The translations under genes were made by a program, and so were the position numbers. The notes beneath the pieces are model-generated. The model worked only from the letters and a program-made list of their open reading frames with translations, was not told the DNA's origin and did not search any database. DNA of 24,229 nucleotides, from the NCBI GenBank assembly GCA_017546885.1, contig JAFYRQ010000027.1:1-24229 (forward strand). The letters are read 5' to 3'. The DNA comes from Alphaproteobacteria bacterium. Lineage in GTDB: Bacteria > Pseudomonadota > Alphaproteobacteria > RF32 > CAG-239. Below are positions 1 through 17,516 of the stretch, one piece after another; position 1 is the stretch's first letter, and each line of letters starts with the position of its first letter.

Positions 1-615
1 GTACACGCACAAAAAGATATAGCCTCAGGTCATATTGTAGAACTTGGAAAAGAGCCACGTCCCAATACAAGTTTAGATGCAGCAAACAGATTAATTGCAG
101 CTAAACACACAGTTACAACTCTTCCACAGCGTACTACAACACAAGAAGTTGAAACACCTCCTGTGGCTCCTGCTGAACCGGAAAAAACTCTTAAAGAAGA
201 AGGTATTGTTCAAGCTCAAGCTGATGAGGAAATAGCCAAAAAACAAAAACAAGTTGAAACAGACCCGCGCAGCGCTGAAAATGCAAGACGTGAACAAGCT
301 CACGAAGACAGAGGTAAAAAAATCAACCCGAGAATTGAAGAAATTAAAGCTCGTGCGTTAGCATCAAGACAAGCAAAACAAAGCGGTGCTGAGTTTATGG
401 TTGATGCGATGCTTGCAAACGGAAACTTGACACCGGAACAGCAAGAAGCTTTGTTAAATGCAGGTATTGCAGCCCAAAAAGCAGGAAAAGATGGTTCTAC
501 TGATCAAATTCTGAATAACATGAGAGAATCCGGACAGTTCAGTCAAGACCAAATTAAGACCGCTCGTGAAGTAAACTTTGCATACGGATTAGCCCAAAAG
601 ACAGGTAGAGAATAG
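1..615 (+). CDS. 5'-truncated hypothetical protein (Ala/Gln/Glu-rich C-terminus)
   Basis: Frame is open from base 1 (VHAQKDIASG...) to TAG at 613-615, so the 163 start in the track is internal. The stop shares one base with the GTG of the next gene. No family motif recognised. Confidence 0.8.
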   Translation, partial: VHAQKDIASGHIVELGKEPRPNTSLDAANRLIAAKHTVTTLPQRTTTQEVETPPVAPAEPEKTLKEEGIVQAQADEEIAKKQKQVETDPRSAENARREQAHEDRGKKINPRIEEIKARALASRQAKQSGAEFMVDAMLANGNLTPEQQEALLNAGIAAQKAGKDGSTDQILNNMRESGQFSQDQIKTAREVNFAYGLAQKTGRE

Positions 616-1130
616 TGAAAAAAATAAAGAAGTTTATTCGTTTCTGTTTTATCGGAGCAATATGGTCATATATCTATTTCGGAATAGTCGCATGGCTAAT
701 GAAATGGATTTGGAAATTTGATATTTTCGGTAAAAGGTATTGGATTAAAATATCTCGTTTTTGGCAAGATGGCGGTGTTATTGATACAGCGCAGGAATAT
801 TTCTTTGTAATCGCCTTGATTGCCATTATTCCGTTGTGGATATGGGGTTGGCGAAAAGCTATGAAAGTCTCGATAACCAAGATAATTTTCTTCCCTGTTT
901 TTTGGTATCACAATTATCAGGAAAAGAAATATGCTCAACTTCCCAAATCAATTACTTTGAAAAACATGGGATCAAAAGTAGGTGCTAAGCAAACGCCTCA
1001 ACAAATGTTAGAAGAAATGATTTCCAGTCGTATGCCGAAACAAAAAGATAAAAAAGATTTGAACTCAAGCAAAATTCGTAGTAGTTTTGAAGAAAAGAAT
1101 AAGACTTTTCATGAAAAAGTCGGTAAATAA
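615..1130 (+). CDS. Hypothetical membrane protein, paralog A (Trp-rich hydrophobic N-terminal domain, basic C-terminal tail)
   Basis: 171-aa ORF with GTG start coupled to the upstream stop (TAGTG). Two to three hydrophobic segments. Ungapped similarity to the N-terminus of the next ORF. Confidence 0.85.
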   Translation: MKKIKKFIRFCFIGAIWSYIYFGIVAWLMKWIWKFDIFGKRYWIKISRFWQDGGVIDTAQEYFFVIALIAIIPLWIWGWRKAMKVSITKIIFFPVFWYHNYQEKKYAQLPKSITLKNMGSKVGAKQTPQQMLEEMISSRMPKQKDKKDLNSSKIRSSFEEKNKTFHEKVGK

Positions 1131-1146
1131 GAAATAGGAGAATTTA

Positions 1147-2541
1147 TTGAAACCCTTACTCATACTTGCCAGAATCATAATTGTCGGTTTGTTATGGAGT
1201 GTTTTCTTCATGGAAAGCATTAGGGTTATTATGCTCCGTAACTGGCACTTTGACATCTTAAACATAGAACACTGGAATATCGCATGGAATTTGTGGTCCG
1301 ATTCGTGGGTTATATCAGAGCCTAAAGAGTGGGCTTTTGTACTCATTATCATATCGTTCATTCCTTTATGGTTCACAGGATGGATTGCTTTGAGCATGAT
1401 TTCTTGGGGTAAGATGATATGGTTTATCATAACTTTGCCATGGAGATTATTCAAAACATTGTTCTATAAACCGGTGAAAATCATTGCAACCAATACCGGT
1501 GTTACTCCGATTCGCAAAAAACGTTCATACAAAGAGATTCGTCCGCGAGCAATCAGAAGCACGACAACCACATATACAGACCAAATTGAACAGGAACCGC
1601 AACAAATTGTTTCCGTTCCGGCGCTTGCTCCGATTGTAATTCCGCCTTCATCAAAACCGAGCAAACCTGCTACTCAAAAATTTGACCACGCATTATTTAA
1701 GTTTGATGATGATGTTGACGATTTAGATTTTGATATTGATTCATTTGATGTTACCCCCGCTCAAAAACCGCAGGAAAATAATAACCATCGAAAAGAACGT
1801 TTTGATTATGACGAAGACGAAGCTCCGGCACGTCCTCGTAACAAACCTCAGAGCAGAGAAAGAGATAACGATAGAGATAGCGACAGACGCAACAGAAATT
1901 CTCGAGATAATGAGCGCCGTGACAGACAGGAACGAGCTCCCAGAAATGAGCGTCAGGAAAGAAATGAAAGACCGAATCGAGATTTCGAACGCCGCATAAA
2001 GGAAGATTTCAACAATAAAGAAAAACCGGTACAAAAACAACCGAGCGGCTCTTGTGTTGATATAATCAAACAAAAAGGCTATGAAGTTATCAGTCGTGTA
2101 AGTATCAAAAATACCATCATTGACTATGTCGGTGTCAGCGCAAATAAATTATGCTTGTGCATGCTAGACAGAGAACCTGGAGACTGGTTAGCGGATGAAG
2201 AACGTTTTAATGATGAAGAACCGTTATGGTTCTCTGAAAACTCGCACCGAGTTTCACCGGTTCGTAAAATTGATATAGCCAAAAGAATGATTGCGGATCG
2301 TTTGGAATCTGCTAACATAAAACTTGATATAGAAGCATTTGTAATTATCCAAATCGGTAATATTATAAATGCCGAAGATATGTTTGAAATTTGGGATTCT
2401 CTTGATATTCATGTAACCAGAATTGACAGAGGAACACCAAAAGAAATAAAATTGTTTGCCAGAGCATTACCTGATGCGGAAAAATCAATTGCACCGGGTA
2501 AACTTGATAAACTTATTAATTTATTGCGTAATATGGGATAA
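1147..2541 (+). CDS. Hypothetical membrane protein, paralog B: TM domain, charged low-complexity linker and C-terminal NERD-like (PD-(D/E)xK fold) domain
   Basis: 464 aa, TTG start with AGGAG RBS at 1136-1140. The C-terminal pattern IDYVGVSANKLCLCMLD...GDWLADEE...W...SPV parallels the NERD pattern IDH.V....GIFVIETK...GW...DE...W...NP. The domain call is by eye. Confidence 0.75.
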   Translation: MKPLLILARIIIVGLLWSVFFMESIRVIMLRNWHFDILNIEHWNIAWNLWSDSWVISEPKEWAFVLIIISFIPLWFTGWIALSMISWGKMIWFIITLPWRLFKTLFYKPVKIIATNTGVTPIRKKRSYKEIRPRAIRSTTTTYTDQIEQEPQQIVSVPALAPIVIPPSSKPSKPATQKFDHALFKFDDDVDDLDFDIDSFDVTPAQKPQENNNHRKERFDYDEDEAPARPRNKPQSRERDNDRDSDRRNRNSRDNERRDRQERAPRNERQERNERPNRDFERRIKEDFNNKEKPVQKQPSGSCVDIIKQKGYEVISRVSIKNTIIDYVGVSANKLCLCMLDREPGDWLADEERFNDEEPLWFSENSHRVSPVRKIDIAKRMIADRLESANIKLDIEAFVIIQIGNIINAEDMFEIWDSLDIHVTRIDRGTPKEIKLFARALPDAEKSIAPGKLDKLINLLRNMG

Positions 2542-2547
2542 CATAAA

Positions 2548-4731
2548 ATGGGATTACAAAAACGCGGAGAAGAATGGGCAGAATATGATCACGCGGTGCA
2601 ATGGATGTCATTGACCGTAATCATTACTCTTGTTGTAACAATTGTTTTAGCGGCGATAGCAATGCCGTTAGGCTACCTTATCGGCAATGGTGTATCAAAA
2701 GAATCCATTGAAACCGTCGGCAAATTTATGGCCACCATTTTTAACGATCCCGGATACCTTTTCAGACAATATGGTCGTTGGTTTAACCAAATATCTAACA
2801 GTCATGGTAGTTTCAGTTTAGGTATGTGGTTGCCGATTATACCTATTTTAACCCTTCCCATAGGCTTAATTATCGGTGCAATGAGTAACCCTTACCGATT
2901 TCAATCCAACATTCATGGTTCGGGACGTTTGGCAACCTTAAAAGATATTAAAGCCATGAAGTTGTTAGATGGCTTTTGTATGGTTGTAGGCAAATATAAA
3001 GGCTACTACTTAAAACTCCCTGAAACATTATCTACTCTATGTTGTGCACCTCCGGGAACCGGTAAAACCGTTGGAGTGGTTATCCCTACCATTTTCAATT
3101 CTAAAGGCATGAGCTTGGTTATTAACGACCCTAAACCGGAATTGTGCTACAGTACATCAGGTGCTCGCGCTAAAGATGGTCCGGTATTTATCATTAACTG
3201 GGGTGCGGAAGACAAGCCGGAGCAAGGTTTGTATTATCCGAGTTGGAATCCGTTGTCTCCTACAGCCTTACCGGTTGCAGGTCCGGCTCGTGATATGTAT
3301 ATCGACTCAATGTGTAATATTTTGGTGGAAGATCCTAAAGGCGGTGCCGACCCTCACTGGTCACAAACCGGTCGTGCGGCATTAACCGGATTTATTCACT
3401 TTATTTCTTCAAAATGCGAAAAAGCGCGTGCAAATGACTATTTCATCGGTCGTGTTTATGAAGGCAAACTTGATGCGGAAGATAAACAAGTTCTCGAAGG
3501 ATATTATGAAGAAATTAAAGGACACAATCCGGCTGCCGTAAGAGCCGTAACCGATTTGCGTAACAATAACCTTACTGTTGAAAACTATGTTCCTATCGGA
3601 ACTTGGGACTTGTTACCGGAAAAATGGGTCGGTCGTGAACCCTGTATTGCGATGATTATGGAGTGGTTGACCGAAGCACAAATCAAACAAGGTCGTGAAA
3701 TCCGTCGTCGTCTTGATGAAGGCGACCAAATGGCAGCAATGGCAGATCCTATGCGTGACTTGTTGGAAGCAGCTATTGATGAAGCCCGTAAGTATGGTTA
3801 TACTCAACGTGCCTACACGGAATTGTCATCATTAAGTAATATGCCTGATAAAGAACGTGGTTCCGTTATGTCAACAGCTTTCGCAGGTATCGGTGTATTC
3901 AAAAACTCGGCGGTTGTGGCAAGAACAAGCTTTTCTGACTTACAATTTAAAGATTTACGCGGTATGAAAGACCCGATTACCGGTGAATGGAAACCGATTT
4001 CGGTTTATTTGTCGGTTAACCAAGTGGATGCTCGTGCATTAGGTGTGATTAATGGTATTTTCATTGAATTGATGTCTTCGTACCTTATTTCAAACCCGCC
4101 AAACTTTGTTAATGCTTCAGACGGCAAAATGGGACCGTTCCCTTGTATGTTCGTATTGGACGAGTTTCCGCAAATGCCTAAACTTAAAGCGGTTATTGAC
4201 GGACCGGCGGTAGGACGTGGTCAAAAAGTGTCGTACTTGCTTATCGGACAAGATTTGGGACAAATTTCAGGTAAATACGGTAAGGATGACTTGGAAACGG
4301 TTATCTCTACCACCGCTTGCAAAATCATTTTATCACAGAACAACGAACAAACCGCTCAACGTTTCTCAAAAATGGTGGGTAACAAGACGGTTCAAACTTC
4401 TTCTTATTCAAAACAAGAAGGTTTTGCCAATAAAGGTGCTAACCCGTTCGCAAAGAATACAACTTATTCATTACAGGGTGTTTCGGTTATTACCGCATCT
4501 CAACTTTTGAGCTTACCTCAACTGAAACAGGTTGTATTAATGCAAAGTAACATTGACCACCCGATTATGGCAGATTCACCGCGTTGGTACTTGGATGCAA
4601 GAATGAAAGCTATGGCAAAACTTCCGCCTGCTCCGAATGTTCCGGAATGGATTGTTGCACAACGTGAAGACGTCAATGACAACATGATGGAAAAACTCGG
4701 ACTGGGAGAAGACGATAGTCAGGCCTCATAA
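2548..4731 (+). CDS. virD4: Type IV coupling protein, VirD4/TraG family ATPase
   Basis: Two N-terminal TM segments, HGSGRLA motif, Walker A APPGTGKT (3046-3069), INDPKPEL, ERGSVMST, Walker B LDEF (from 4156), GRGQKV...QDLGQISGKYG. Confidence 0.92.
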   Translation: MGLQKRGEEWAEYDHAVQWMSLTVIITLVVTIVLAAIAMPLGYLIGNGVSKESIETVGKFMATIFNDPGYLFRQYGRWFNQISNSHGSFSLGMWLPIIPILTLPIGLIIGAMSNPYRFQSNIHGSGRLATLKDIKAMKLLDGFCMVVGKYKGYYLKLPETLSTLCCAPPGTGKTVGVVIPTIFNSKGMSLVINDPKPELCYSTSGARAKDGPVFIINWGAEDKPEQGLYYPSWNPLSPTALPVAGPARDMYIDSMCNILVEDPKGGADPHWSQTGRAALTGFIHFISSKCEKARANDYFIGRVYEGKLDAEDKQVLEGYYEEIKGHNPAAVRAVTDLRNNNLTVENYVPIGTWDLLPEKWVGREPCIAMIMEWLTEAQIKQGREIRRRLDEGDQMAAMADPMRDLLEAAIDEARKYGYTQRAYTELSSLSNMPDKERGSVMSTAFAGIGVFKNSAVVARTSFSDLQFKDLRGMKDPITGEWKPISVYLSVNQVDARALGVINGIFIELMSSYLISNPPNFVNASDGKMGPFPCMFVLDEFPQMPKLKAVIDGPAVGRGQKVSYLLIGQDLGQISGKYGKDDLETVISTTACKIILSQNNEQTAQRFSKMVGNKTVQTSSYSKQEGFANKGANPFAKNTTYSLQGVSVITASQLLSLPQLKQVVLMQSNIDHPIMADSPRWYLDARMKAMAKLPPAPNVPEWIVAQREDVNDNMMEKLGLGEDDSQAS

Positions 4732-5015
4732 AAATAATAATAAATATATTTTAACAAATCCAATATCTTAATACATTTCGGATTAGTTAATGAATAATAT
4801 ACGGATTGAGCAATACGGCGGGTAGATACAATATCCGCCGCTCTTAATACAGCTAAATGTTGTGACAAAGCAGATTGACTTATACCCATAATTTTTTCCA
4901 GTTCACCTACATTTTTTTCCCCGCTTTGCAAATTACAAACTATTTCCAAACGTTTTGTATTTCCCAGAGCTTTGAGCATTTCTGCGCTTTTTTCAAATCT
5001 TTTCAAATTTTCCAT
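4719..5015 (-). CDS. ArsR/SmtB family regulator, BigR/SqrR/HlyU-like
   Basis: LKALGNTKRLEIVCNL...NVGEL...SQSALSQHLAVLR...RR..QSVYYSL winged HTH. Start reassigned to ATG at 5015 (GGAG 9 nt upstream), giving 98 aa. The longer ORF in the track extends through the intergenic region. Confidence 0.9.
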   Translation of the reverse strand: MENLKRFEKSAEMLKALGNTKRLEIVCNLQSGEKNVGELEKIMGISQSALSQHLAVLRAADIVSTRRIAQSVYYSLTNPKCIKILDLLKYIYYYFYEA

Positions 5016-5126
5016 CCCTAACATCTCCGTCAAATTAACAATTAGACATTTATAAAATAGACATTGATATTGAAATTTAAAGATTATGACCGTAATATAA
5101 TTAAAAAATTTTGGAGAATTATACAA

Positions 5127-5378
5127 ATGTCTGACGAAATAATTGAAAATATGAGTTTTGAAGATGCTCTGACCCGTTTAGAAGCTTTAGTTAGAGAATT
5201 GGAAGCCGGCAGAATAAAACTTGATGATGCGGTATCTGCATACGAACAAGCCGTAAAGTTAAAAAAATTCTGTGAAAACAAATTAAACGATGCAAAATTG
5301 AAAATCGAAAAAATAGAAACAAATTCAAACGGCAATGTTTCATTAACACCTTTAGATAAAATAGAAAACAATGAGTAA
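5127..5378 (+). CDS. xseB: Exodeoxyribonuclease VII small subunit
   Basis: SFEDALTRLEALVRELEAGRIKLDDAVSAYEQAVKLKKFC. Start reassigned to ATG 5127 after GGAG at 5113-5116. Adjacent to ispA as in the conserved operon. Confidence 0.95.
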   Translation: MSDEIIENMSFEDALTRLEALVRELEAGRIKLDDAVSAYEQAVKLKKFCENKLNDAKLKIEKIETNSNGNVSLTPLDKIENNE

Positions 5379-6273
5379 AATAGAAGAAACATTAAAAAGC
5401 TTTTCTAATCGCTTTAATCAGGAAATAAATAATTTCTTTTACTTTCCCGAAGGTTATGAACGCCGTGTTGTTGAAGCCATGTACTATTCAATGACACGAG
5501 GAGGAAAAAGACTACGTCCGTTTTTGTTATGTGAAACAGCTCGTATGTTAGGAGTAGATTTTACGCAATCATTAAATGTGGCGATGGCACTTGAAATGCT
5601 ACACACATATTCGCTTATCCATGATGACTTGCCGGCAATGGATGATGATGACATACGTCGCGGTTTTCCGACCTGCCATAAAAATTTTGACGAAGCAACA
5701 GCCATTATCGCCGGAGATGGTTTGTTGACTTACGCTTTTGAAATTATGAGCTATCCGCAAACCGTTCAAGATGCTAACACAAGATGTCGTTTAATTGAGA
5801 TGTTAGCCAGAGCAGCCGGAGCTTTTGACGGAATGGTAGCCGGTCAAATGTTAGATTTAATTGCTTCAACCTATGCAGCAAAAAGAGAAAATGCCGAAGC
5901 AATGATTAAACATATTGAAGAAATGAAAACCGGTCGTTTATTGCGTTATTCCGTTGAAGCCGGTGCTGTTTTAGGAAACGCAAATACTGAACAAATGACT
6001 GCGTTAATTAACTATTCTCGTAAAATCGGTATTGCATTTCAAATTGCAGATGATATTCTGGATGAAACGGGTGATGAAAATATCGTCGGTAAAACTTTGA
6101 GAAAGGATTCCGAACAAAACAAATTCACTTTTGTCAGTCTTTACGGACTGGATATGGCTCGAAAGATTGCCCAAGAGCTCATCGCCGGAGCTGAAGAAGA
6201 TTTACTTATATTCGGCAATAGTGCCGATAACTTAAAAGCCCTTGCTCACTATATTATTGAACGAAATCACTAA
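5371..6273 (+). CDS. ispA: Farnesyl/geranyl diphosphate synthase (polyprenyl synthetase)
   Basis: GGKRLRP, first Asp-rich motif HDDLPAMDDDDIRRG, GQMLDL, KTG, second motif FQIADDILD, GKT...D. Confidence 0.95.
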   Translation: MSKIEETLKSFSNRFNQEINNFFYFPEGYERRVVEAMYYSMTRGGKRLRPFLLCETARMLGVDFTQSLNVAMALEMLHTYSLIHDDLPAMDDDDIRRGFPTCHKNFDEATAIIAGDGLLTYAFEIMSYPQTVQDANTRCRLIEMLARAAGAFDGMVAGQMLDLIASTYAAKRENAEAMIKHIEEMKTGRLLRYSVEAGAVLGNANTEQMTALINYSRKIGIAFQIADDILDETGDENIVGKTLRKDSEQNKFTFVSLYGLDMARKIAQELIAGAEEDLLIFGNSADNLKALAHYIIERNH

Positions 6274-6284
6274 TGGAGGAAACA

Positions 6285-7223
6285 ATGAAAAACTTATGGA
6301 AAATATTTTTATTTGTAATTGCATTTGTTCTTCCTTGCACACAAGCTGCATCACAAGTGCAATTTGGCGTACCTAAAAAAATGTCAAATTCAATTTTGAG
6401 AATAAGCAGCTTCTATGACTATTATCCTTTAGGCAGTACCGCAAGCGGAAGATATGAGGGATTACTGGATACATTTTTAAAAGATTTTCAAACTTTTGCT
6501 AATTTTTCTGCTGAAATGTATCGAGGTCAAGATTACGAAGAAACAATTCGTACCGGAGCAAAAGGCAGATCTGACATAATTCTCGGAATGTATTCCGACA
6601 CCAGTATTTACGGAGATTTGAAATTCATCTATCCGGCCGCAATAGATAATCCGGTTCATCTGGTCATGCTTCCTTCTAAAATCTCTGCGGTAAAAAAAAT
6701 ATCTGATTTAAAAAATATGAAAGGTGCCATCGACAGTCGTGAATATTGGAGCGATTTTGTAAAAGATCAAATGCAAAACTTCAATTTGGAAAAGATTGAT
6801 AACTCCTATGATTTGTACGGCAAACTTTTGAGAGGAGAAATTGATTATATCTTCACCACCTATTGGTTCGGTTCAATTGAAATGATGAAATTGGGTGTAA
6901 GAGATTTAGTAACCTTGTCTAAAAAAAGCATCTGGAGTATGCCTGTTTTTATCGGAATATCAAAGATTTCCATGGAGAGAGATTATCTTTCTCACAATTT
7001 GACTCAGTGGCTGTCCCGTCAAGAAGTCAGAGACAAAATAAAAAATCGAGCTATCGAAATTTTGCAAAAAGTTGAAGAAGAAACCAGAGGAACGGTTCCA
7101 CCATCCTATATTTTGGAACAACCTAAAGAAGAAGCAAAAACTCCGGTTGAGGAAAAAAACAATCCGTTGCTATCTTCTTCTCCTCTTTTAGGTGGTCCGC
7201 TTTTAAATAATACAAATAACTGA
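6285..7223 (+). CDS. Exported solute-binding protein, probably family 3 (amino-acid-type periplasmic binding fold)
   Basis: Signal peptide MKNLWKIFLFVIAFVLPCTQA. Segments resembling family-3 SBPs (YYPLG...YEG...D; DLKFIYP; ISDLKNMKG; LLRGEIDYI). Start placed at ATG 6285 behind GGAGG; the alternative is 6273. Confidence 0.6.
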   Translation: MKNLWKIFLFVIAFVLPCTQAASQVQFGVPKKMSNSILRISSFYDYYPLGSTASGRYEGLLDTFLKDFQTFANFSAEMYRGQDYEETIRTGAKGRSDIILGMYSDTSIYGDLKFIYPAAIDNPVHLVMLPSKISAVKKISDLKNMKGAIDSREYWSDFVKDQMQNFNLEKIDNSYDLYGKLLRGEIDYIFTTYWFGSIEMMKLGVRDLVTLSKKSIWSMPVFIGISKISMERDYLSHNLTQWLSRQEVRDKIKNRAIEILQKVEEETRGTVPPSYILEQPKEEAKTPVEEKNNPLLSSSPLLGGPLLNNTNN

Positions 7224-7224
7224 C

Positions 7225-7253
7225 TTGACCTATTATAAACAAATTGATAGATT
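7225..7253 (+). promoter_or_regulatory. Candidate sigma70 promoter for fzlA and the lipoprotein gene
   Basis: TTGACC (7225-7230), 17 nt, TAGATT (7248-7253) in the short intergenic gap. Confidence 0.55.
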
Positions 7254-7285
7254 AAGAATATAATTTAATTGTGGGGGTAATATAT

Positions 7286-7957
7286 ATGGTTCTGTTAATA
7301 CATCATCCGATTTCACCTTTCTCTCGTAAAGCCAGAATTCTTATGGGAGAAAAGCGAATATTGTTTGTATTAAAAGAAGAAGATCCGTGGAATCTGTCAG
7401 AAGAAGCTATGCGCCTTAATCCTGCCGGAGAGTTACCGATATTTGTATTTGACGGCAACGTTATCACCGGAAACAATGCTATCTGTGAATTTTTAGAAGA
7501 AGTTCACAACGACAAAGATGCAAAGCTTATCAACGGCGATATAAGACATCATGCCGAAATTCGTCGATTGACGGAATGGTTTGATTATAAGTTTTATCGA
7601 GAAGTATATCGCAATTTGGTAGCAGAAAAGGTTTTTAAGCGTTTCACGTCCGGCACAGCTCCCGACTCACGAGTATTAAAAAAAGGCATAAACAACTTAA
7701 AATTTCATATGGAATATTTGGACTGGTTATGTGAAAACCGCAAATTTTTGGCAGGTGACAATTTTTCTTTGGCAGATATCAGTGCGGCAGCACAACTTTC
7801 AATCATTGATTATTTAGGAGATATTTCTTGGGATGATTATAAAAATGCCAAATTATGGTATTCAAAAATAAAATCCCGTCCTTCTTTCAAAGAAATATTA
7901 AAAGATAACATCAAGGGAATTTTACCCTCAAAACATTATAGTAACTTGGATTTTTAG
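7286..7957 (+). CDS. fzlA: FtsZ-binding GST-fold protein FzlA
   Basis: HHPISPFSRKAR..MGEKR, LNPAGELP, AEIRRLTEWFDYKF, EKVFKRF, LSIIDYLGDISW, WYSKIKSRPSF and C-terminal HYSNLDF all follow Caulobacter FzlA as recalled. Start placed at ATG 7286 after GGGGG; the alternative is GTG 7271. Confidence 0.88.
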   Translation: MVLLIHHPISPFSRKARILMGEKRILFVLKEEDPWNLSEEAMRLNPAGELPIFVFDGNVITGNNAICEFLEEVHNDKDAKLINGDIRHHAEIRRLTEWFDYKFYREVYRNLVAEKVFKRFTSGTAPDSRVLKKGINNLKFHMEYLDWLCENRKFLAGDNFSLADISAAAQLSIIDYLGDISWDDYKNAKLWYSKIKSRPSFKEILKDNIKGILPSKHYSNLDF

Positions 7958-7959
7958 TC

Positions 7960-8472
7960 ATGAAAAAATATGTTATTTTACTTCTTTGTATTTTGGCACT
8001 AAGCTCTTGCTCAAGCACGGCAGGCGGAGAAAAACGTCCGAGAAGACCTTGGTGGCAAATTCCTCCGTTCAGTTGGTTTGATGCTCATGGTGACGGACAA
8101 GAAATTTTTCACTGGCAACGTCCACGTACCAGTGTTCAGAAATTTGCAACCGACCATAAGTTTTGTATGACGGAGGCAGCACAATTTAAAATGATACCTT
8201 TTGTAAAAAAATGGTTCCATGAAACGATGTATACTGAAGAAGCGAATTTGGAAATAAGAGCCGATTGGAACGGAAAGAGCGGTATATGGGCCAGTTTTGT
8301 GCCTTATCCTGGGGCACAACCTCTTATGGTAAATACCCCAACACCGCAAGATGATGATGATATAAATTATCAAAAATATGTAAATTGCATGGAAGCCAGA
8401 GGCTATGTTACCCGTATCTATGACATACCTGATTCTACAAATTTATATTTGCGTAAAAAGGTTTCTCAATAG
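7960..8472 (+). CDS. Hypothetical lipoprotein
   Basis: MKK plus hydrophobic stretch plus lipobox LSSC. Starts 2 nt after the fzlA stop. Contains D..FCM and Y.NCMEARGY motifs. Confidence 0.8.
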   Translation: MKKYVILLLCILALSSCSSTAGGEKRPRRPWWQIPPFSWFDAHGDGQEIFHWQRPRTSVQKFATDHKFCMTEAAQFKMIPFVKKWFHETMYTEEANLEIRADWNGKSGIWASFVPYPGAQPLMVNTPTPQDDDDINYQKYVNCMEARGYVTRIYDIPDSTNLYLRKKVSQ

Positions 8473-9857
8473 CCACCGCCTATTGACTTATAAAAACTGA
8501 TTATATTTTGATAAATTGCCCCTCGAGCAACAACCAGGTTATTTTGTGCTTCAAGGAGATTTTGCTCGGTTGATAAAATATCACTGAACTCTGATAATCC
8601 TGATTGATATTTAACTTTCATATTATCAAAAACTTCCTGCATATTATTAACCGAGCGTGTCAAAGCAATAACTTTATCATAACCTTTATTTGTCGCTTCA
8701 ACAGAATTACTTATATCTTGAATCGCCCCCAATAACGCATTTTGATATAAATATAAATATTCTTCTTTTATTGATTTGTTTAGCTTAACCTGATTTACTA
8801 ATTGTCCCCAGTGTAAAACAGGAATATTAACCACCGGAGTATATCCGTAAGCAGGATTTTCAGATTTTCCCAAGTCTTTAATCAGGTGAGCTTGCCAACC
8901 TAATATCGCCGTTATACTAACACTCGGAAACATATCGGCCACTGCTTGACCTATATCGGCATTTTTTGAAATCAGCATATTTTCTGCCATTTTAACATCC
9001 GGACGATTTCTTATTACTTCAACCGGAAATTCTCTCAACTTTTGCAAATTAAACGCAAATGTTTTTCTGACAATATTATTTTCGGTAGTATCAAGCTCCG
9101 CAATTTCTTCCGGCAATTTATCAAGCAAAATCGCAATAGCATTTTTATACGCTTTTACCTGATATTCCAAATCCGGCAATAATGATTTAGTGGTTTGAAC
9201 CGCATATTCTGCCTGATTTAAGGCAATATCATCAGCTAAACCTGATTTATACTTATCTCTGACCGTATTATATATTTCTTTTTGCAAACGTAAATTTTGC
9301 TTTGAAATTCGCAACCTTTCTTGTGTTGTACGCAACAAAATATAATTATTCGCTACCTCTGCCGTCATACTCAAAAACACATCATTCAAATTATTTGCCG
9401 CTGCACGATATAATGCTTGAGCACTTTCTCTCAAACGACGTCCTCCGCCCCAAATATCTAATTCCCAAGAAGCATCTAAGCCTAATCGATAATAGCTTGT
9501 TTTGTCACCTAATTCCTCATATTTCGGAGCATACATATAGTTATACTCACCATTAACATCAAGCATCGGAAAATATCGTACTTCACTGATATTCAACGAA
9601 TATCTGGCTTGTCGCAATTTTTCCAAAGCAATTTTTACATTAGGACTGTTTTGTAAAGCTTCGCCTATCAAGCGATTTAATGTTTCATCACCAAAATCCC
9701 GGTACCAAAAAATATTTATCGGATAATTTGAGTAATAATCCACTCCTAAACTGTTCACTAATTGCTGATTATTCCAAAATATCGGGCTTTCATAATCCGG
9801 TCCTACCGAACAGGAAGCCAGTAACAATATTGCCCCGATTTTACCTAACTTCCTCAT
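8466..9857 (-). CDS. RND efflux outer-membrane factor lipoprotein (OprM/NodT family)
   Basis: Lipobox LLASC followed by [25 protein letters not shown]-terminal YKSIGGGY. Confidence 0.93.
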
Positions 9858-12800
9858 TATTATTCTCCTTACTTTTTACCTTTGAGCTATATTCTTTTAT
9901 ACTTTCAAACAATGCGAAATATGCCGGAATAAATATTATTCCTACAAAAGTTGCAGCAATCATGCCGAAAAAAACCGCTGTTCCGATTGCAATTTGACTG
10001 GAAGCCCCGGCTCCACTGGCCACAATCATCGGAAAAACACCTAAAATAAAAGTCAATGCAGTCATTAATACAGCACGAAATCGCTCCCCTGCTCCTTTTA
10101 TCGAAGCCTCAAGTATGCTATCGCCTTTTTCACGATAAGACTTTGTAAACTCTACTATCAATATTGCATTTTTTGCCGCCAAACCTATTAGCATAACCAA
10201 ACCGAGTTGCGCATATATACTCAACGATTGTCCCATCAAATGCAAACCGATTAATGCTCCCATAATTGCAAAAATTGTTGAAAACATAACTGAAAATGCC
10301 AACATCCAACTCTCATACAAAGCAACCAAAAACAAATAACAAAATACTAGAGCCAAAACAATCAAAACGACTACTAAACCGGAAGCTTCAACCTCTTGTA
10401 AACTCAATCCGGTCCATGCTATTTTGTAACTGTCCGGAGATAATGTGGAATCTACTTCTTTCTCAACAGCATCAATAGCTGTTCCGGTACTTACTCCGTT
10501 AGCACTCTGAGCAACAACCGACGCATTTTGATATTGATTGTATCTGTTTATGGTTTTAGGAGACAATGATATTTTGACATCGGCAAAACTTCCTACTTTT
10601 ATCATGGAACCGTTAGCAGAACGAACATAGAGATTTTTTATATCCTCTATACTGCTTCTATAATCAAAATCAGCCTGAACAATAACTTTATTAACCTGTC
10701 CGCTCAAAGTTATATTATTTACATATCTTGAACCTAAATTATTTTGGAGAGTTTCAAACAAATCACTAACCTGAATTTTATATGATTCAAGCTTTGTTCT
10801 GTCTATATCCAAAAACACATGGGGCGCATCGGCAGTATAAACACTGAAAGCATAAGCTAAATCAGGATTTGAGTTTAATACTCCCAAAAACTTTTGCAAA
10901 TTTTCAAACAGTTCATTTGATGTAATATTTTGATTAATTGCCAAAAACTCCATCGTTAAACCGTTACTGTTTCCGATACCGGGAATTGCAGGAGGGGCAA
11001 AAAAGTTTATTTTAGCTCCGTTTATTGATGCAAATTCTTGAGTTAATTTTTCGGTTATTCCTTCAACAGATGTATTTTTTGTTTTTCGCTCATCCCATGG
11101 GTTTAAGCCTATAACCCCCAGAGCAACATTTTCGCCTGCTCCGCCCAACATACTGTATCCGGCAACACCTACAAAATATTTTACACCTTCAACTTTTCTT
11201 ACTTTTTCACCGATTTCTCCTAAAATTTTATTTGTCTGATTTATGCTTGAAGTATTGTCCAGCTGAATATCTCCGAAAATAATCCCTTGGTCTTCTTCAG
11301 GTAAAAATGATGTCGGAGTAAACTTAAATCCTAAACCTAAAATGGCAATAATTACCAACGTTAAAATTGTTGTTATTTTCAACTTTGAAGCAAAAAACTG
11401 AACCGCAATCAAATATTTTTGCTTAAAAAAATCTATCATGTCATCAAATGATTTAAAAAATCCGTGCGGTTGTTGCTGCTTATCATCTCGCAAAAATATT
11501 GCACAAAGAGACGGACTTAATGTCAACGCGTTAAAAGCCGAAAAAACAACAGCAGTTGCTATTGTAACCGCAAATTGCTGATATATTTTTCCGGTAATAC
11601 CGGCCATTAATCCGACGGGAACAAAAATTGATAAAAGAACAAATGTAGTTGCAATAATCGCACTTCCTATCTGTTGCATTGCTTTTATTGAAGCATTATG
11701 CGCATCCATATTTTCATAAGCCATCAAATATTGAACTCGCTCAACAACGATGATTGCATCATCAACAACCAAGCCTATCGCCAAAATCATAGCAAATAAG
11801 GTTAGAATATTTATATCAAATCCTAAAGCATATAAAACGGCAAAAGTAGCTATCAGTGATACAGGTATTGTTATTAGCGGAATTAATGTTGTTTTTGCTT
11901 TTTGTAAAAACAAATAAGTTACAGCTACCACAAGCAAAAACGTAATAAACAATGTTTCTATGATTCCGGCTATTGAGGCTCTCACATATTGAGTTGAATC
12001 ATAAGCAATTTTAAATTCTAAATCTTCGGAAAACGTTTTTGATAAATTTTCAATTTCCTTGGCAACATCATCCATAATATTCAACGAATTTGAGCCCGGA
12101 GTTTGACTTAAAGACATAATAACCGCAGGCGCATTATCAAAACTTGCATTCATAGTATAAGTATCCGCCCCTAGTTCGATTCGGGCTATATCTTCCAAAT
12201 AAACGATTCCACCGTTATCTGATGTTGCGACTACAATCTTTTTGAAATCCTCAACATTATTTAATAGTCCCTTGGCCGACAATGACAATACCATATTTGC
12301 TCCTTGTTTTGCCGGTGCAGACCCTATACTGCCTATTGAAGCCTGAACATTTTGAGAAGCAATAATATTAACTATATCTGTACTATCTAATCCCAATGAT
12401 GATATTTTTTCCGAATTTAGCCATACTCTCATACTATATTGCGGACCGAAAATTTGAACATCACTGACTCCGCTGACACGACCTAAAGGATTTTTCAAAT
12501 TCACATAAGCATAATTACTTAAATATAAATCATCATACGTATTATGAGGAGAACGCAAAACTAACAATGCCAACATATTTGACATTTCGGTAGTAACCGT
12601 AACACCTTCTTGTTGAACAATTGACGGCAGTTGCGACATAACCTGACTTAAGCGATTCTGCACCTTAACCTGAGCAATATCCGGATCGGTACCGACATTA
12701 AAAGTAATGGTGAGTTTATAATTTCCTTCGTCGTTTGATGTAGAACTCATATATAACATATCTTCCACACCATTAATTTGGTTTTCAATCGGAATTGCAA

Positions 12801-12987
12801 CCGTATCAACCACCACTTGAGCGCTTGCTCCCGGATAGGTAGTACTTACAACAATTTGCGGTGGTGTAATTTGAGGATATTGTGAAACAGGTAAAACAAA
12901 AATTGCCAATAAACCGATTAAGACCATAATTATGGACACAACGGCAGCAAAACGCGGTTTGTTTATAAAATATTGAGAAAACATCAT
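9841..12987 (-). CDS. RND efflux permease, HAE1/AcrB family
   Basis: 1048 aa; [15 protein letters not shown], proton-relay motifs [25 protein letters not shown] and R.RAVLMT intact. The start could be the second ATG at 12984. Confidence 0.96.
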
Positions 12988-14114
12988 TTATTCTCCTTCT
13001 CACCGCTTATCTCGTTTATTTTTACCTTTTGTTCGTCGGGTTTTAAGGTAATTTTTTCGGCAACAAGCTTCATTGTCGGCAAAAAATTATTTTCAAGAAC
13101 ATAATTATTGCCCGATTCTGCCAATATTTTCACATTATGTTTTTTTACGATATTTCCCTCGGTTACATAAACGAAACTGTTTTCCGATTGCAACGTAACC
13201 AAATCTTTATTTATCAAAATTCCTTTGTAATCTTTTGCAACCATTACCGTCACATAAGCCTTATCCATGAGCTTTTGTTTCGGATTCTCAAAATCGGCAT
13301 ATACAGCTACGGAATTTGTTGTTCTGTCTATCTGATTATCCGAATACTTAAACACTCCCTCATATTCATAAACATTACCGTTTGCCAGTTTTAATCTGAT
13401 TCGTTCATCATCAAACATTTTTTCTTTGGCATTTTCTTCCAAATAATCTTTATCGCTGATTGAAAAAACAACTCGCATCGGATTGGTCTGAATAATGCTG
13501 AAAAGAACATTTTGCGGAGAAATATAATCCCCCTTTGTCAAGGCAACATTTCCGACAATACCGTTAATTGTCGAAGTAACAACCGTATATCCTAAATTTA
13601 CTTCTGCTTGTTTTACATTAGCTTTTGCCTGATGCAAAACCGCTTGCGATGCCAAAAAAGACGATTTTGCATTATCTGTTTCTGTTTGAGAAACCGCTTT
13701 TAAACCGGCATTTTTTATTCTTTCATAATAATTTCTGGCATATTCAAAATCGGCTGTCGCCTTAGAAAGAGAAGCATTAGCAGCATCAAGAGCAGCCTGA
13801 TATTGCTCTTGTTCCATAACCACTAATTGTTGTCCTGCGCTAACTTTTTGTCCGCCTTCTACCAAAACTTCACTTACAAAACCGTTTATATAAGGTTGAA
13901 CACTAACATCATTTATCGGAGTCACATAGCCGATATATTGCTTTTCTACCGCAACATTTTTTTCAACTATCGGGACAACATTAATTTCTGCTTCCGACAT
14001 TTCTTTTTCGGGCAAACTAATTTTATGATGTAAATGCCATCCTAACCAAGCCGCAAAAATTAAAAAAACAAGAGCTATAATCCAAGCATGCGCGTATCCT
14101 TTTTTATCAACCAT
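12984..14114 (-). CDS. RND efflux periplasmic adaptor (membrane fusion protein, AcrA-like)
   Basis: N-terminal TM anchor, VQPYINGFV...V..GQ lipoyl half-motif, helical hairpin, [11 protein letters not shown]. Its stop overlaps the permease start (ATGA). Confidence 0.93.
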
Positions 14115-14250: not shown

Positions 14251-15288
14251 ATGTTATATAGTTTTCTAAATGCCTATACTGCCGACTTTTTGGCATTTTT
14301 TACTTCATTAATAATAATGCTTTTATGCGGCAAAAAATTTATTAAATTAATGCGTGCATGGCAACATGAAGGGCAGCCGATAAGAGAGTGCGGACCTAAA
14401 AGCCATTTGGAGACAAAAAAAGGAACTCCTACAATGGGAGGAATTTTGATTTTAGCTTCAATTATAATATCAACTTTGCTCTTTGCCAATCTCAAACAAG
14501 GAATGACCTGGGTATGTTTAGGTGTTATGATTGTTTTCGGAATTGCCGGCTTTATTGATGACTATGTAAAAGTAAAAAAACATACTCCTAATGCAATGAC
14601 CGCAAAAGTTAAACTGCTAATTCAATTTGCCGTTGCTGCCGGAGTAGCATATTTTGCCACAACACAATATGAAGCCCCTATGAACTTTAGCATTATTGTT
14701 CCCTATCTCGACTTCCCGATTAATTTGTGGTGGTTTTACATACCGTTTGCCATGGTTGTAATTGCCGGTGCTTCCAATGCCGTAAACTTAAGTGACGGAC
14801 TAGACGGATTGGCAGCAGGCTTGCTTATTCCTCCTTTTATGGTTTTAGGATTTATTGCTCTTTTAATCGGCTTTGAATATTACGATTTTATGCCATTCCC
14901 GAGTTTAAGCATCATTTGTTCTGCCGTTATCGGAGCTTGTTTGGGATTTTTGTGGTTCAACTGCTCTCCTGCTCAAATTTTTATGGGCGATACCGGTTCT
15001 TTGTCTCTCGGTGCCCTTTTGGGAACGATTGCTATTTTGGCTAAACAAGATTTATTATTGGCAATTATAGGTTTTGTTTTTGTTGCAGAAGCTTTGTCGG
15101 TAATGATACAGGTTTTTTGGTACAAACGCACCAAAACAAGAGTATTTTTAATGGCTCCCATTCATCACCACTTTGAACAAAAAGGGTGGAAAGAAACAAC
15201 TGTGGTAATACGTTTTTGGGTTATCGGTTGGTTGGTTGCCGGCCTCGGAATGCTCGCAGTTGTAAGCCCTACCGCATGGGGAAACTAA
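14251..15288 (+). CDS. mraY: Phospho-N-acetylmuramoyl-pentapeptide transferase
   Basis: KKGTPTMGG, GFIDDYVK, NAVNLSDGLDGLA, FMGDTGSL, APIHHHFEQKGW. Confidence 0.97.
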   Translation: MLYSFLNAYTADFLAFFTSLIIMLLCGKKFIKLMRAWQHEGQPIRECGPKSHLETKKGTPTMGGILILASIIISTLLFANLKQGMTWVCLGVMIVFGIAGFIDDYVKVKKHTPNAMTAKVKLLIQFAVAAGVAYFATTQYEAPMNFSIIVPYLDFPINLWWFYIPFAMVVIAGASNAVNLSDGLDGLAAGLLIPPFMVLGFIALLIGFEYYDFMPFPSLSIICSAVIGACLGFLWFNCSPAQIFMGDTGSLSLGALLGTIAILAKQDLLLAIIGFVFVAEALSVMIQVFWYKRTKTRVFLMAPIHHHFEQKGWKETTVVIRFWVIGWLVAGLGMLAVVSPTAWGN

Positions 15289-16416
15289 ATGCTGATATCT
15301 CGCGGTAAAAATAACTTTTTTACAAATTGGTGGTGGACTGTTGATAAAATATTACTCGGTTGTATTATCGCGTTAATTACCATAGGGGTAATTTTATGTT
15401 TTTCAGCCTCCCCGGCTGTTGCCGAAAGAGAAGGTTTCGGAAGTTATCACTTTATAAAACGCCACCTGATATTTGCTCCTGTTGCACTAGGAATTGTTAT
15501 TTCTTTATCTATGCTAAAACTTAAAACCATCCGCAGAATTGCTCTGTTAGGATATTTAGTTGCCATGATATTGGTCGGGATGACTTTTTTCCTAGGAGAA
15601 GCGAACAGAGGTGCATCTCGTTGGATTCCTTTTTTTGGTTTTACTTTACAACCTTCAGAATTTGTAAAACCATTCTTTATCATTATGGCCGCTTGGCTGT
15701 TTAACGGACAAAAACAACAACCTGATTTCCCCGGAAATTTCTTGTCAATCGGACTGTTTATAATTACGGCAAGCGCGATACTTTTTCAACCTGATATCGG
15801 AATGACTACCGTTGTATCCGTCATCTGGGCCGCTCAATTAGTGTTAAGCGGAATTCCGTTATTTTGGATAATTATATTAGGTATATTGGCTATTATCGGA
15901 GTAATAATCGGATATTTTACTTTTCCGCATTTTCAGATGCGCATACTTCAATTTTTCGCCTCAGGAAATGATACACCATATCAAATTAAACGTGCAAATG
16001 AAGCTTTTGCAAGCAGCAATTTTTTTGGCAGAGGTCCCGGAGAAGGAATAGCACGCTCTCATATCCCAGATGCCCATACAGACTTTATTTATGCCGTAAT
16101 TGCCGAAGAATACGGATTTTTTATCTGTCTTGCCGTTGTCCTTTTATACGCAACAATAGTTATTCGCTCGCTCATATTATCATGCAGAGAAAACAATTTT
16201 TTCATTGTTTTATCTGTTTCGGGACTTGCTCTGTCTTTCGGTATTCAAGCAGTAATTAATATGGCATCAACTCTGCAATTAATGCCAACTAAAGGTATGA
16301 CCTTGCCGTTTATATCCTATGGCGGTTCTTCAATATTGGCATCTGCAATAGGTATGGGAATGCTTCTGGCAATCACTCGTAAAAACTCTCATGCGGAGGA
16401 TAAAGATAATGTCTGA
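15289..16416 (+). CDS. ftsW: SEDS peptidoglycan glycosyltransferase FtsW
   Basis: GASRWI, QPSEFVKP, QPDIG, PDAHTDFI, EEYG, PTKGMTLPFISYGGSS; located between mraY and murG. Confidence 0.96.
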   Translation: MLISRGKNNFFTNWWWTVDKILLGCIIALITIGVILCFSASPAVAEREGFGSYHFIKRHLIFAPVALGIVISLSMLKLKTIRRIALLGYLVAMILVGMTFFLGEANRGASRWIPFFGFTLQPSEFVKPFFIIMAAWLFNGQKQQPDFPGNFLSIGLFIITASAILFQPDIGMTTVVSVIWAAQLVLSGIPLFWIIILGILAIIGVIIGYFTFPHFQMRILQFFASGNDTPYQIKRANEAFASSNFFGRGPGEGIARSHIPDAHTDFIYAVIAEEYGFFICLAVVLLYATIVIRSLILSCRENNFFIVLSVSGLALSFGIQAVINMASTLQLMPTKGMTLPFISYGGSSILASAIGMGMLLAITRKNSHAEDKDNV

Positions 16417-17515: not shown

Positions 17516-17516
17516 T

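What the first reader, a model, noticed from the sequence alone, without database searches (positions are those of the whole stretch)
615..1425. Tandem paralogs share an ungapped ~93-aa Trp-rich membrane domain of unknown family
Seen: aligning residues 1-93 of the 615 and 1147 ORFs without gaps gives 30 identities by hand count (about 32%). Shared pattern: R....G..WS, M...W.FDI.....W......W.D..VI....E..FV...I..IPLW..GW, S..K.I.F. After it, A has a short basic tail and B has a long linker plus a globular domain. I do not recognise the domain. Inference: an old duplication that yields a heteromeric membrane module, with conserved tryptophans marking a loop between TM helices.
Basis: seen in the sequence. 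Interest (0 to 1): 0.72.

Follow-up and report, generated by a model that had tools for sequence, protein, structure and literature searches.

The report
Paralogous membrane partners of VirD4
Two neighbouring genes just upstream of a type IV secretion coupling ATPase are real, old duplicates that share an undescribed two-helix, tryptophan-rich membrane module. They are most likely accessory subunits of that ATPase in small-genome gut Alphaproteobacteria, but no binding has been shown.

Summary
ORF A (615-1130, 171 aa) and ORF B (1147-2541, 464 aa) align without gaps over residues 1-93, with 30 identities (BLASTP E 3e-13; shuffle z 10-15). Profile-profile comparison extends the homology to about residue 128.

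The module has two TM helices, N-in/C-in. Between them lies a periplasmic interfacial helix that carries the best-conserved residues (W33, F35, W43, W50, G53). A fourth, membrane-proximal helix follows.

No Pfam, NCBIfam, PADLOC, PHROG, PDB or AlphaFold-DB family matches it apart from its own unnamed relatives.

The family was found in 27 of 401 sampled alphaproteobacterial genomes, all 0.6-2.5 Mb. All 27 carry a T4CP, and in 19 a family member lies directly upstream of a VirD4-type ATPase of about 720-800 aa.

In other lineages the upstream copy is full length, with a divergent nuclease-like (NERD-type) C-domain. A is therefore a truncated paralog of B that still carries conserved membrane-proximal and tail motifs. 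Both genes are under strong purifying selection (dN/dS 0.03-0.05).

Best reading: these are accessory inner-membrane subunits of a chromosomal, rvh-like T4SS coupling protein. The proposed A:B heteromer is untested, because the complex prediction gave no answer.

The scan has already reported this module on other genomes. No paper describing it turned up in the searches run.

The parts
1..615 (+). 3' part of the upstream operon gene. Its orthologue in relative G005 is a hydrophilic 623-aa protein with no family match. Its stop codon overlaps the A start codon by 1 nt (TAGTG).
615..1130 (+). Gene A, 171 aa, GTG start. It is the short paralog: membrane module plus a basic cytoplasmic tail. dN/dS is 0.03-0.04.
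615..935 (+). A membrane module, aa 1-107: basic N-terminus, TM1 (about 7-30), periplasmic loop with interfacial helix 40-51 (W33, F35, W43, W50, G53), TM2 (about 59-84) and helix 87-106.
936..998 (+). A aa 108-128: the stretch after the membrane module that still aligns with B. It includes the conserved motif I-x-L-K-N-M-G (aa 113-119; K116 and N117 in at least 90% of sequences).
1065..1097 (+). Conserved A tail motif S-S-K-I-R-S-x-F-E-x-K (aa 151-161; I154, R155 and K161 in at least 90%). At depth the tail evolves more slowly than A's own membrane module.
1147..2541 (+). Gene B, 464 aa, TTG start 6 nt after an AGGAG. It has the membrane module, a disordered linker and a C-terminal nuclease-fold domain. 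dN/dS is 0.025-0.055.
1147..1467 (+). B membrane module, aa 1-107: helices 2-33, 40-52, 59-84 and 87-107. It holds 12 Trp in the first 100 residues. W43, W47 and W50 sit at i, i+4 and i+7, on one face of the loop helix.
1468..1530 (+). B aa 108-128: the stretch (P-V-K-I-I-x-x-N-T-G) that aligns with A 108-128 in the profile-profile comparison.
1531..2046 (+). B linker, aa 129-300, predicted disordered (pLDDT below 50). It has two conserved islands, which start just before and lie within this stretch: S-Y-K-E-I-R-P-R (aa 127-134) and the acidic-aromatic F-D-H-x-L-F-K-F-D-D...D-F-D-I-D-S-F (aa 179-200).
2047..2538 (+). B C-terminal alpha/beta domain, aa 301-464 (pLDDT about 90), with the invariant motif G-D-W-L-A-D-E-E-x-F-N-x-E-x-P-x-W-F-S-E. 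The fold is PD-(D/E)xK / NERD-like. This domain is the subject of a separate finding.
2548..4731 (+). VirD4/TraG-type type IV coupling protein, 727 aa, starting 6 nt after the B stop. It has two N-terminal TM helices that are unrelated to the A/B module.

Best explanation
A and B are paralogous inner-membrane accessory proteins of a chromosomal VirD4-type coupling ATPase. That ATPase belongs to a scattered, rvh-like type IV secretion system in small-genome gut Alphaproteobacteria.

Their shared module of about 125 aa is a helical hairpin inserted N-in/C-in. A Trp-lined amphipathic helix lies on the periplasmic membrane surface, and a membrane-proximal cytoplasmic helix and motif follow TM2.

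Shown here: the homology, the predicted fold and topology, purifying selection on both genes, and the genomic association with the T4CP.

Inferred:
- The module is an assembly element as well as an anchor. It would hold B's catalytically degenerate nuclease-fold head, and A's conserved basic tail, at the cytoplasmic mouth of the VirD4 hexamer, as a substrate- or partner-docking device.
- Where two copies exist, they act together as a hetero-oligomer. The short copy A would be a truncated subunit, as DotJ is to DotI in Legionella.
For: - Homology is real and extends to about residue 128.
- AF2 gives both proteins the same four-helix layout at pLDDT 80-92.
- The positive-inside rule over 240 family members gives net charge +2.7 at the N-terminus, -0.1 in the loop and +6.3 in the 40 aa after TM2. 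That places the tail and the C-domain in the cytoplasm, on the side of the VirD4 ATPase domain.
- The most conserved positions across 107 non-redundant members are in the loop (F35 99%, W43 95%, G53 94%, W33 and W50 87%). The loop is more conserved than TM1, which a plain anchor would not need.
- Gene order is tight: A-B-virD4 with a 1-nt overlap upstream of A and gaps of 16 and 6 nt.
- In an even draw of 401 alphaproteobacterial genomes, the module occurs in 27. All 27 have a T4CP (141/401 overall). In 19 the module gene lies directly upstream, on the same strand, of a T4CP of about 720-800 aa; 3 more cases end at contig edges.
- Divergent single-copy members P0297 and P0229 also abut a T4CP amid different housekeeping flanks.
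- All 22 genus relatives that have B also have A upstream of it.
- dN/dS is 0.03-0.05 for both genes, and A's tail is better conserved than its membrane module.
- Relatives encode VirB4, three large VirB6 proteins and a giant VirB10 elsewhere in the genome. No PF03432 or PF08751 relaxase was found.
- Bovine-gut metatranscriptome contigs cover A, B and virD4 and bridge both junctions. This is weak evidence, because DNA carry-over is not excluded.
- Precedent: DotI/DotJ and the 2-TM protein IcmT are inner-membrane receptors of a T4SS ATPase (PMC11474061).
Against: - No physical interaction is shown. The complex prediction for A, B and the VirD4 TM region gave no answer.
- Adjacency is not universal. 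In G271/G102, G397 and G179/G324 a T4CP of the same kind has no such neighbour. P0263 sits after the atp operon. Second copies are dispersed in six genomes.
- VirD4 has its own two TM helices, so it needs no membrane receptor.
- One B-like protein next to a near-identical T4CP (G056) has a degenerate module without the tryptophans.
- Own genome G000 is only 70% complete, and no VirB4, VirB6 or VirB10 was found in it.
Confidence: 0.55

Rival explanations
1. The module is only a membrane anchor that tethers a nuclease-fold (NERD-like) domain to the inner membrane. Any link to VirD4 runs through the C-domain alone, and A is a functionless or decaying remnant of a duplicated gene.
For: NERD-type proteins often carry N-terminal TM segments (own knowledge of the family). 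Single-copy genomes exist. A lacks the C-domain. A's membrane module evolves 4-5 times faster than B's at depth (dN 0.25-0.49 against 0.07-0.09).
Against: A is intact in all 22 genus relatives that have B, with dN/dS 0.03-0.04 and conserved tail motifs. The periplasmic loop is the best-conserved part of the module. RNA-library contigs cover A.
Confidence: 0.17
2. A and B work independently of type IV secretion, for example in membrane-associated DNA or stress handling, or in an unrecognised defence function. They merely share an operon with virD4.
For: Some members are not next to a T4CP. No interaction is shown.
Against: Adjacency persists across at least 12 GTDB families with unrelated flanks. 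All 27 genomes with the module have a T4CP. There is no PADLOC or PHROG match and no plasmid copy.
Confidence: 0.15
3. B is a T4SS cargo or toxin and A is its membrane immunity or exclusion protein.
For: The arrangement fits on its face: a nuclease-like fold next to a secretion ATPase, beside a small membrane protein.
Against: Immunity proteins are not paralogs of their toxins. Both proteins are integral membrane proteins with cytoplasmic C-termini. Both are core genes under strong purifying selection and show no polymorphic-toxin pattern. An earlier scan note reports that the canonical catalytic lysine is missing (I did not test this independently).
Confidence: 0.04
4. The similarity is compositional, arising because both are Trp- and Ile-rich TM segments, or the module is a copy of the VirD4 membrane domain.
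For: Both proteins are hydrophobic and the genome is AT-rich.
Against: Segment-preserving shuffles give z 15. hhalign of the two families gives probability 99.4%. hhalign of the module against VirD4 residues 1-137 gives probability 0.08%.
Confidence: 0.01

Closest known systems
DotI / DotJ of the Legionella Dot/Icm T4SS (PMC11474061)
   Same: An inner-membrane pair in a T4SS in which a short protein (DotJ, 94 aa) is a truncated paralog (26% identity) of a longer one (DotI, 212 aa). The two depend on each other for stability, form a 2:1 complex, and dock a secretion ATPase through their cytoplasmic parts. A and B show the same pattern of a long and a truncated paralog at 32% identity.
   Different: DotI and DotJ have one TM helix each, and DotI's larger domain is periplasmic; by my recollection that domain is VirB8-like. 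They receive the VirB4-like DotO, not the coupling protein. No sequence or fold similarity to A/B was found. This is an analogy only.
IcmT of the Legionella Dot/Icm T4SS (PMC11474061)
   Same: A small inner-membrane protein with two TM helices, both termini cytoplasmic, and conserved Trp/Arg residues in its cytoplasmic ends. It acts as a membrane receptor for a T4SS ATPase. The topology and basic tail resemble A.
   Different: IcmT is 86 aa, has no long conserved periplasmic loop, belongs to a T4BSS and partners a different ATPase. The Pfam scan of A returned no family at all.
DotM (IcmP), partner of the DotL coupling protein in the Legionella type IV coupling complex (own knowledge; Meir et al., Nat Commun 2020, PMC7280309, seen only as a reference)
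   Same: An inner-membrane protein with N-terminal TM helices and a cytoplasmic domain. It sits on the T4CP and captures substrates. This is the role proposed here for B.
   Different: No similarity was detected by Pfam or Foldseek. B's head has a nuclease fold and DotM's does not. DotM belongs to a T4BSS, whereas this system is VirB-type (rvh-like).
NERD domain (Pfam PF08378), PD-(D/E)xK superfamily
   Same: B's C-domain has an alpha-beta-beta-beta-alpha-beta core. Its best Foldseek hits are NucS/EndoMS, R2 and nicking endonucleases. A relative, P0319, reaches the Pfam NERD threshold (22.8 against 22.1 bits). The AlphaFold-DB cluster representative is named 'NERD domain-containing protein'.
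   Different: This concerns only B's C-terminus, not the shared membrane module. B itself gets no Pfam NERD hit at E<=1. An earlier scan note reports that the catalytic E-x-K is lost.

Membership tests
Any curated family for the shared N-terminal module (Pfam-A, NCBIfam, PADLOC, PHROGs) | Profile match at or near the curated threshold | tested here: not met
   A has no hit at E<=1 in Pfam or NCBIfam. B's only hits there are weak chance-level ones outside the module (residues 145-424). There is no PADLOC hit. The one PHROG hit for B (E 0.045) also lies outside the module, at residues 285-333.
Any solved or predicted fold family for the module | Structural match clearly above the generic helical-hairpin background | tested here: not met
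   VIA-align against 48,161 PDB chains gave a best Z of 5.7, all generic hairpins. Foldseek against PDB found nothing at E<6. The Swiss-Prot AlphaFold set gave nothing at E<1.9. AlphaFold-DB clusters returned only the protein's own family, R6HRF4 and A0A3D5BBU0. The ESM Atlas best match has TM 0.48 to an unnamed cluster. The profile search against PDB sequences gave 0 hits.
VirD4/T4CP N-terminal membrane domain (idea that the module is a copy of it) | Detectable homology between the module profile and VirD4 residues 1-137 | tested here: not met
   hhalign probability 0.08%, E 0.65.
DotI/DotJ (VirB8-like T4BSS inner-membrane pair) | Single TM helix, type II topology, with the larger domain periplasmic (VirB8-like by my recollection) | tested here: not met
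   A and B have two TM helices and cytoplasmic C-termini. B's globular domain is PD-(D/E)xK-like. The features of DotI/DotJ are taken from PMC11474061.
DotI/DotJ (works-like question) | The long and the truncated paralog form a hetero-oligomer that docks a T4SS ATPase | tested here: inconclusive
   The complex prediction gave no answer, score 0.01. Only genomic association is available.
NERD, PF08378 (B C-domain only) | Pfam profile match above the gathering score | tested here: inconclusive
   B has no hit at E<=1. The relative P0319, whose C-domain matches the B C-domain profile at E 1e-58, scores 22.8 against a cut-off of 22.1.
NERD / PD-(D/E)xK | Restriction-endonuclease-like alpha/beta core | tested here: met
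   AF2 pLDDT is about 90 for residues 301-464 with a beta-beta-beta-alpha-beta core. Foldseek top hits are NucS 2vld (E 2e-3, prob 1.0), EndoMS 5gke and the R2 endonuclease domain. The match is weak but consistent.
NERD / PD-(D/E)xK | Catalytic D...(D/E)-x-K triad | not tested
I made no structure-based alignment of catalytic residues. Alignment A2 shows D326, D341 and E343 nearly invariant, and lists no invariant or nearly invariant lysine near strand 334-341.

The most novel reading that the evidence does not exclude
A, B and VirD4 form a previously unknown kind of type IV coupling complex. A membrane-tethered, catalytically dead nuclease-fold head (B) and a truncated paralog (A) would act as the substrate receptor of an rvh-like secretion system. 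The Trp-lined periplasmic helix of the shared module would contact the VirB6/VirB8/VirB10 inner-membrane complex, linking substrate capture to the channel. This would be a VirB-type counterpart of the Legionella DotL-DotM-DotN complex, built from unrelated parts.
Probability: 0.3. Interest if true: 0.7.

Novelty: new variant of a known kind. Interest (0 to 1): 0.5.

Why it matters
Type IV coupling proteins decide what a secretion system exports. Outside Legionella, few membrane partners of these ATPases are known.

Here a partner family with no curated domain is kept next to a core-chromosomal VirD4 in many uncultured, small-genome Alphaproteobacteria. The window organism's sequence is held in bovine-gut libraries. 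In the close relatives checked, the rest of the T4SS is scattered and rvh-like.

If A and B do dock on VirD4, they would give a handle on how these organisms, whose hosts or targets are unknown, choose their substrates. They would also show a second, independent case of a long-plus-truncated paralog pair built into a T4SS. At the least, the module deserves a family definition; its signature is W-x-F-D-x6-W-x6-W-x2-G-W-V-I ... F ... P-x-W ... P-x3-Y.

Tried and rejected
- Complex prediction of A(1-125) + B(1-125) + VirD4(1-135) gave no answer (score 0.01, folds below pLDDT 60). It counts neither for nor against binding.
- Pfam, NCBIfam, PADLOC and PHROGs gave no match to the module.
- PDB sequence searches with the module profile, the B profile and VirD4 found nothing meaningful. 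The only hits were low-complexity matches to B's linker.
- Fold searches with the A model (PDB Foldseek, VIA wide, AlphaFold-DB clusters, Swiss-Prot, ESM Atlas) returned only generic hairpins or the protein's own family.
- A language-model neighbour search gave scores of 0.78-0.81, which is chance level. One lead, PF27688 TrbF, is not supported by the Pfam scan.
- The idea that the module copies the VirD4 TM domain is rejected.
- tblastn of B against 72,556 plasmids found no match, so there is no sign of a plasmid-borne conjugation accessory.
- Four literature searches found no description of the family.
- The deep branching order of the paralogs could not be resolved from 113 columns. Whether there was one ancient duplication or several is left open.
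- I could not name the organism, because genome handles are anonymous.
Full report
**What is in the window**

The window is a whole 24.2-kb contig of a 624-kb alphaproteobacterial MAG that is 70% complete. Its sequence is held in bovine-gut libraries.

Four same-strand genes open the contig:
- the 3' end of a hydrophilic gene (1-615);
- A (615-1130, 171 aa);
- B (1147-2541, 464 aa);
- a VirD4/TraG-type coupling protein (2548-4731, 727 aa; Pfam T4SS-DNA_transf 3e-59).

A starts at a GTG that overlaps the upstream stop codon (TAGTG). B starts at a TTG 6 nt after an AGGAG.

Downstream lie ArsR, IspA, a GST, an AcrB efflux operon and part of a dcw cluster. The module is therefore chromosomal.

**The observation**

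Shuffling B gives z 10 for the in-register score. When shuffling is confined to each TM or loop segment, z is 15, so composition does not explain the match.

hhalign of the two family alignments gives 99.4% probability and E 2.7e-21 over 122 columns, covering residues 1-128 of each protein. This includes a fourth helix and a P-x-x-I-x-x-x-N-x-G stretch. The shared unit is thus about 125 aa, with two small indels after residue 93.

**Anatomy**

AF2 models built on 54 and 64 homologues give both proteins the same layout:
- helix 2-33 (TM1);
- a short helix at 40-52;
- helix 59-84 (TM2);
- helix 87-107.

pLDDT is 80-92 over this region.

Over 240 family members the net charge is +2.7 at the N-terminus, -0.1 in the loop and +6.3 in the 40 residues after TM2. 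The hairpin is therefore N-in/C-in, the short helix lies on the periplasmic face, and the tails are cytoplasmic.

Among 107 non-redundant members the signature positions are W17 (82%), W33 (87%), F35 (99%), W43 (95%), W50 (87%), G53 (94%), I56, F64, P73, W75, P94 and Y98. The loop is more conserved than TM1 (2.03 against 1.55 bits).

In B, W43, W47 and W50 fall at i, i+4 and i+7. That puts them on one face of the helix, as expected for an interfacial helix (read directly from the sequence).

After the module:
- A has conserved I-x-L-K-N-M-G and S-S-K-I-R motifs in a basic tail.
- B has a disordered linker with two conserved islands, then an alpha/beta domain (pLDDT about 90) whose best fold matches are PD-(D/E)xK nucleases.

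**Family and distribution**

No curated family or solved fold matches the module. The only AlphaFold-DB cluster hits are its own relatives. One of them, a 466-aa protein, is named 'NERD domain-containing'.

A profile of the module finds 221 clusters (at 50% identity) among 1.84 billion representative proteins. The match is always at the N-terminus. The hits are mostly either about 160 aa or about 350-500 aa long, apart from shorter, apparently partial sequences.

In an even draw of 401 alphaproteobacterial genomes:
- The module occurs in 27, all of 0.6-2.5 Mb.
- All 27 have a T4CP, against 141 of 401 overall.
- In 19 of them, a module gene lies 2.3-3.1 kb upstream of the Pfam T4CP hit, on the same strand. 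This is the spacing expected for abutting genes.
- Three more cases end at contig edges.
- Five are not adjacent.

The neighbouring T4CPs form a recognisable kind: 720-800 aa (one of 961 aa), with the Pfam match restricted to profile positions 190-456.

Divergent single-copy members P0297 and P0229 also abut a T4CP among unrelated housekeeping genes.

Exceptions are real:
- P0263 follows the atp operon.
- G271/G102, G397 and G179 have the T4CP without this neighbour.
- The G056 B-like protein has a degenerate module without tryptophans.

**The duplication**

HMM scans of more than 30 loci show three things:
- The copy next to the T4CP always carries the strong C-domain.
- In families f20, f57 and f109, and in locus L015, the upstream copy is also long, with a weaker C-domain match (E 1e-7 to 1e-32).
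- Short upstream copies occur only in the window's family f1 and in f2 and f4.

The module tree shows the following:
- The proximal copies of f1, f2 and f57 group together (99/96).
- The f20 proximal and distal copies form separate clades (93/85 and 98/93).
- A long distal copy of G027 groups with short copies (93/87).

The duplicated unit was therefore the whole protein, and A is a truncated derivative. Deep nodes are unresolved.

Both genes are under strong purifying selection (dN/dS 0.03-0.05). At depth, A's module evolves 4-5 times faster than B's, while A's tail stays better conserved than A's own module.

**System context**

Near-complete relatives encode VirB4, three large VirB6 paralogs and a VirB10 reading frame of about 1,450 aa on other contigs. 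No PF03432 or PF08751 relaxase was found.

In G027 the paralogs sit beside four tandem VirB6-like genes.

This is the scattered, VirB6-amplified layout known from the Rickettsiales rvh system (PMC4676284 abstract).

In relatives the operon starts with DUF6476 and two hydrophilic unknown proteins.

**Expression**

Contigs from bovine-gut metatranscriptome libraries cover A, B and virD4. They bridge the A/B junction (1096-1293) and the B/virD4 junction (2418-3111), and depth drops after the virD4 stop. This is weak evidence, because DNA in RNA libraries is not excluded.

**Interpretation**

The best-supported reading (0.55) is that A and B are accessory inner-membrane subunits of this VirD4. On this reading the module acts as an assembly element as well as an anchor.

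The DotI/DotJ pair and IcmT of Legionella give a documented precedent for small paralogous or 2-TM membrane proteins docking a T4SS ATPase (PMC11474061). They are not homologues of A or B.

It cannot be general, because several complete genomes have a single copy.

**Relation to earlier scan notes**

The scan has reported the same module on several other genomes, and B's C-domain on this window. Those notes agree with what I tested here.

- the extension of homology to about residue 128;
- the class-wide counts, with their exceptions;
- the evidence that A arose by loss of the C-domain;
- the asymmetric evolutionary rates of the two copies;
- the loop-centred conservation;
- the charge-based topology.

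Noticed in passing
window 14251-18437: MraY, FtsW, MurG and MurB genes abut or lie 1 nt apart, with no MurD between MraY and FtsW and no MurC between MurG and MurB. Whether the ligases lie elsewhere in the genome was not checked.
   Followed up: partly
L011:15002-18175 (G005) and L012:5412-8528 (G025): In relatives the operon begins, divergently from an rluD-like gene, with a DUF6476 protein (93-95 aa). Two hydrophilic proteins with no Pfam family match follow (310 and 623 aa in G005; 424 and 480 aa in G025), and then A-B-virD4. The window's first 615 nt are the end of the 623-aa gene.
   Followed up: partly
L013 (G027:C172) 82-9450: Three paralogs with the module (275, 355 and 368 aa; two of them carry the C-domain) lie divergently from four tandem VirB6/TrbL-like genes. 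These share a C-W-F-C-P-I-F-D motif and Ala/Gly-rich tails.
   Followed up: partly
G005:C24:9261-9836 and G024:C24:95140-95715: The VirB10/TrbI domain sits in an open frame of about 1,447 aa, far longer than usual VirB10 proteins. VirB4 lies about 20 kb away on the same contig.
   Followed up: no
window 1681-1746 and 1525-1557: The otherwise disordered B linker has two strongly conserved islands. One is an acidic-aromatic motif (F-D-H-x-L-F-K-F-D-D...D-F-D-I-D-S-F, aa 179-200). The other is S-Y-K-E-I-R-P-R (aa 127-134). They look like short linear binding motifs.
   Followed up: no
L044:6834-8078 (G056:C2): This B-like protein lies next to a T4CP very similar to the window's (phmmer E 2e-238). 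It keeps the C-domain, but its N-terminus has a duplicated, Trp-less 'R-L-G-F-D-I' version of the loop motif and escapes the module HMM.
   Followed up: partly
L016:11443-12674 (GCA_009929265.1): In a distant lineage the T4CP is followed by two unknown genes (260 and 148 aa). Earlier scan notes mention a DNase toxin/immunity pair downstream of such T4CPs. The window has none: an ArsR gene follows on the opposite strand.
   Followed up: no
window 8466-14114 (- strand): A three-gene RND efflux operon lies between the isoprenoid/GST genes and the dcw cluster. Its middle gene is an AcrB-type pump (1048 aa, Pfam ACR_tran E 5e-302).
   Followed up: partly
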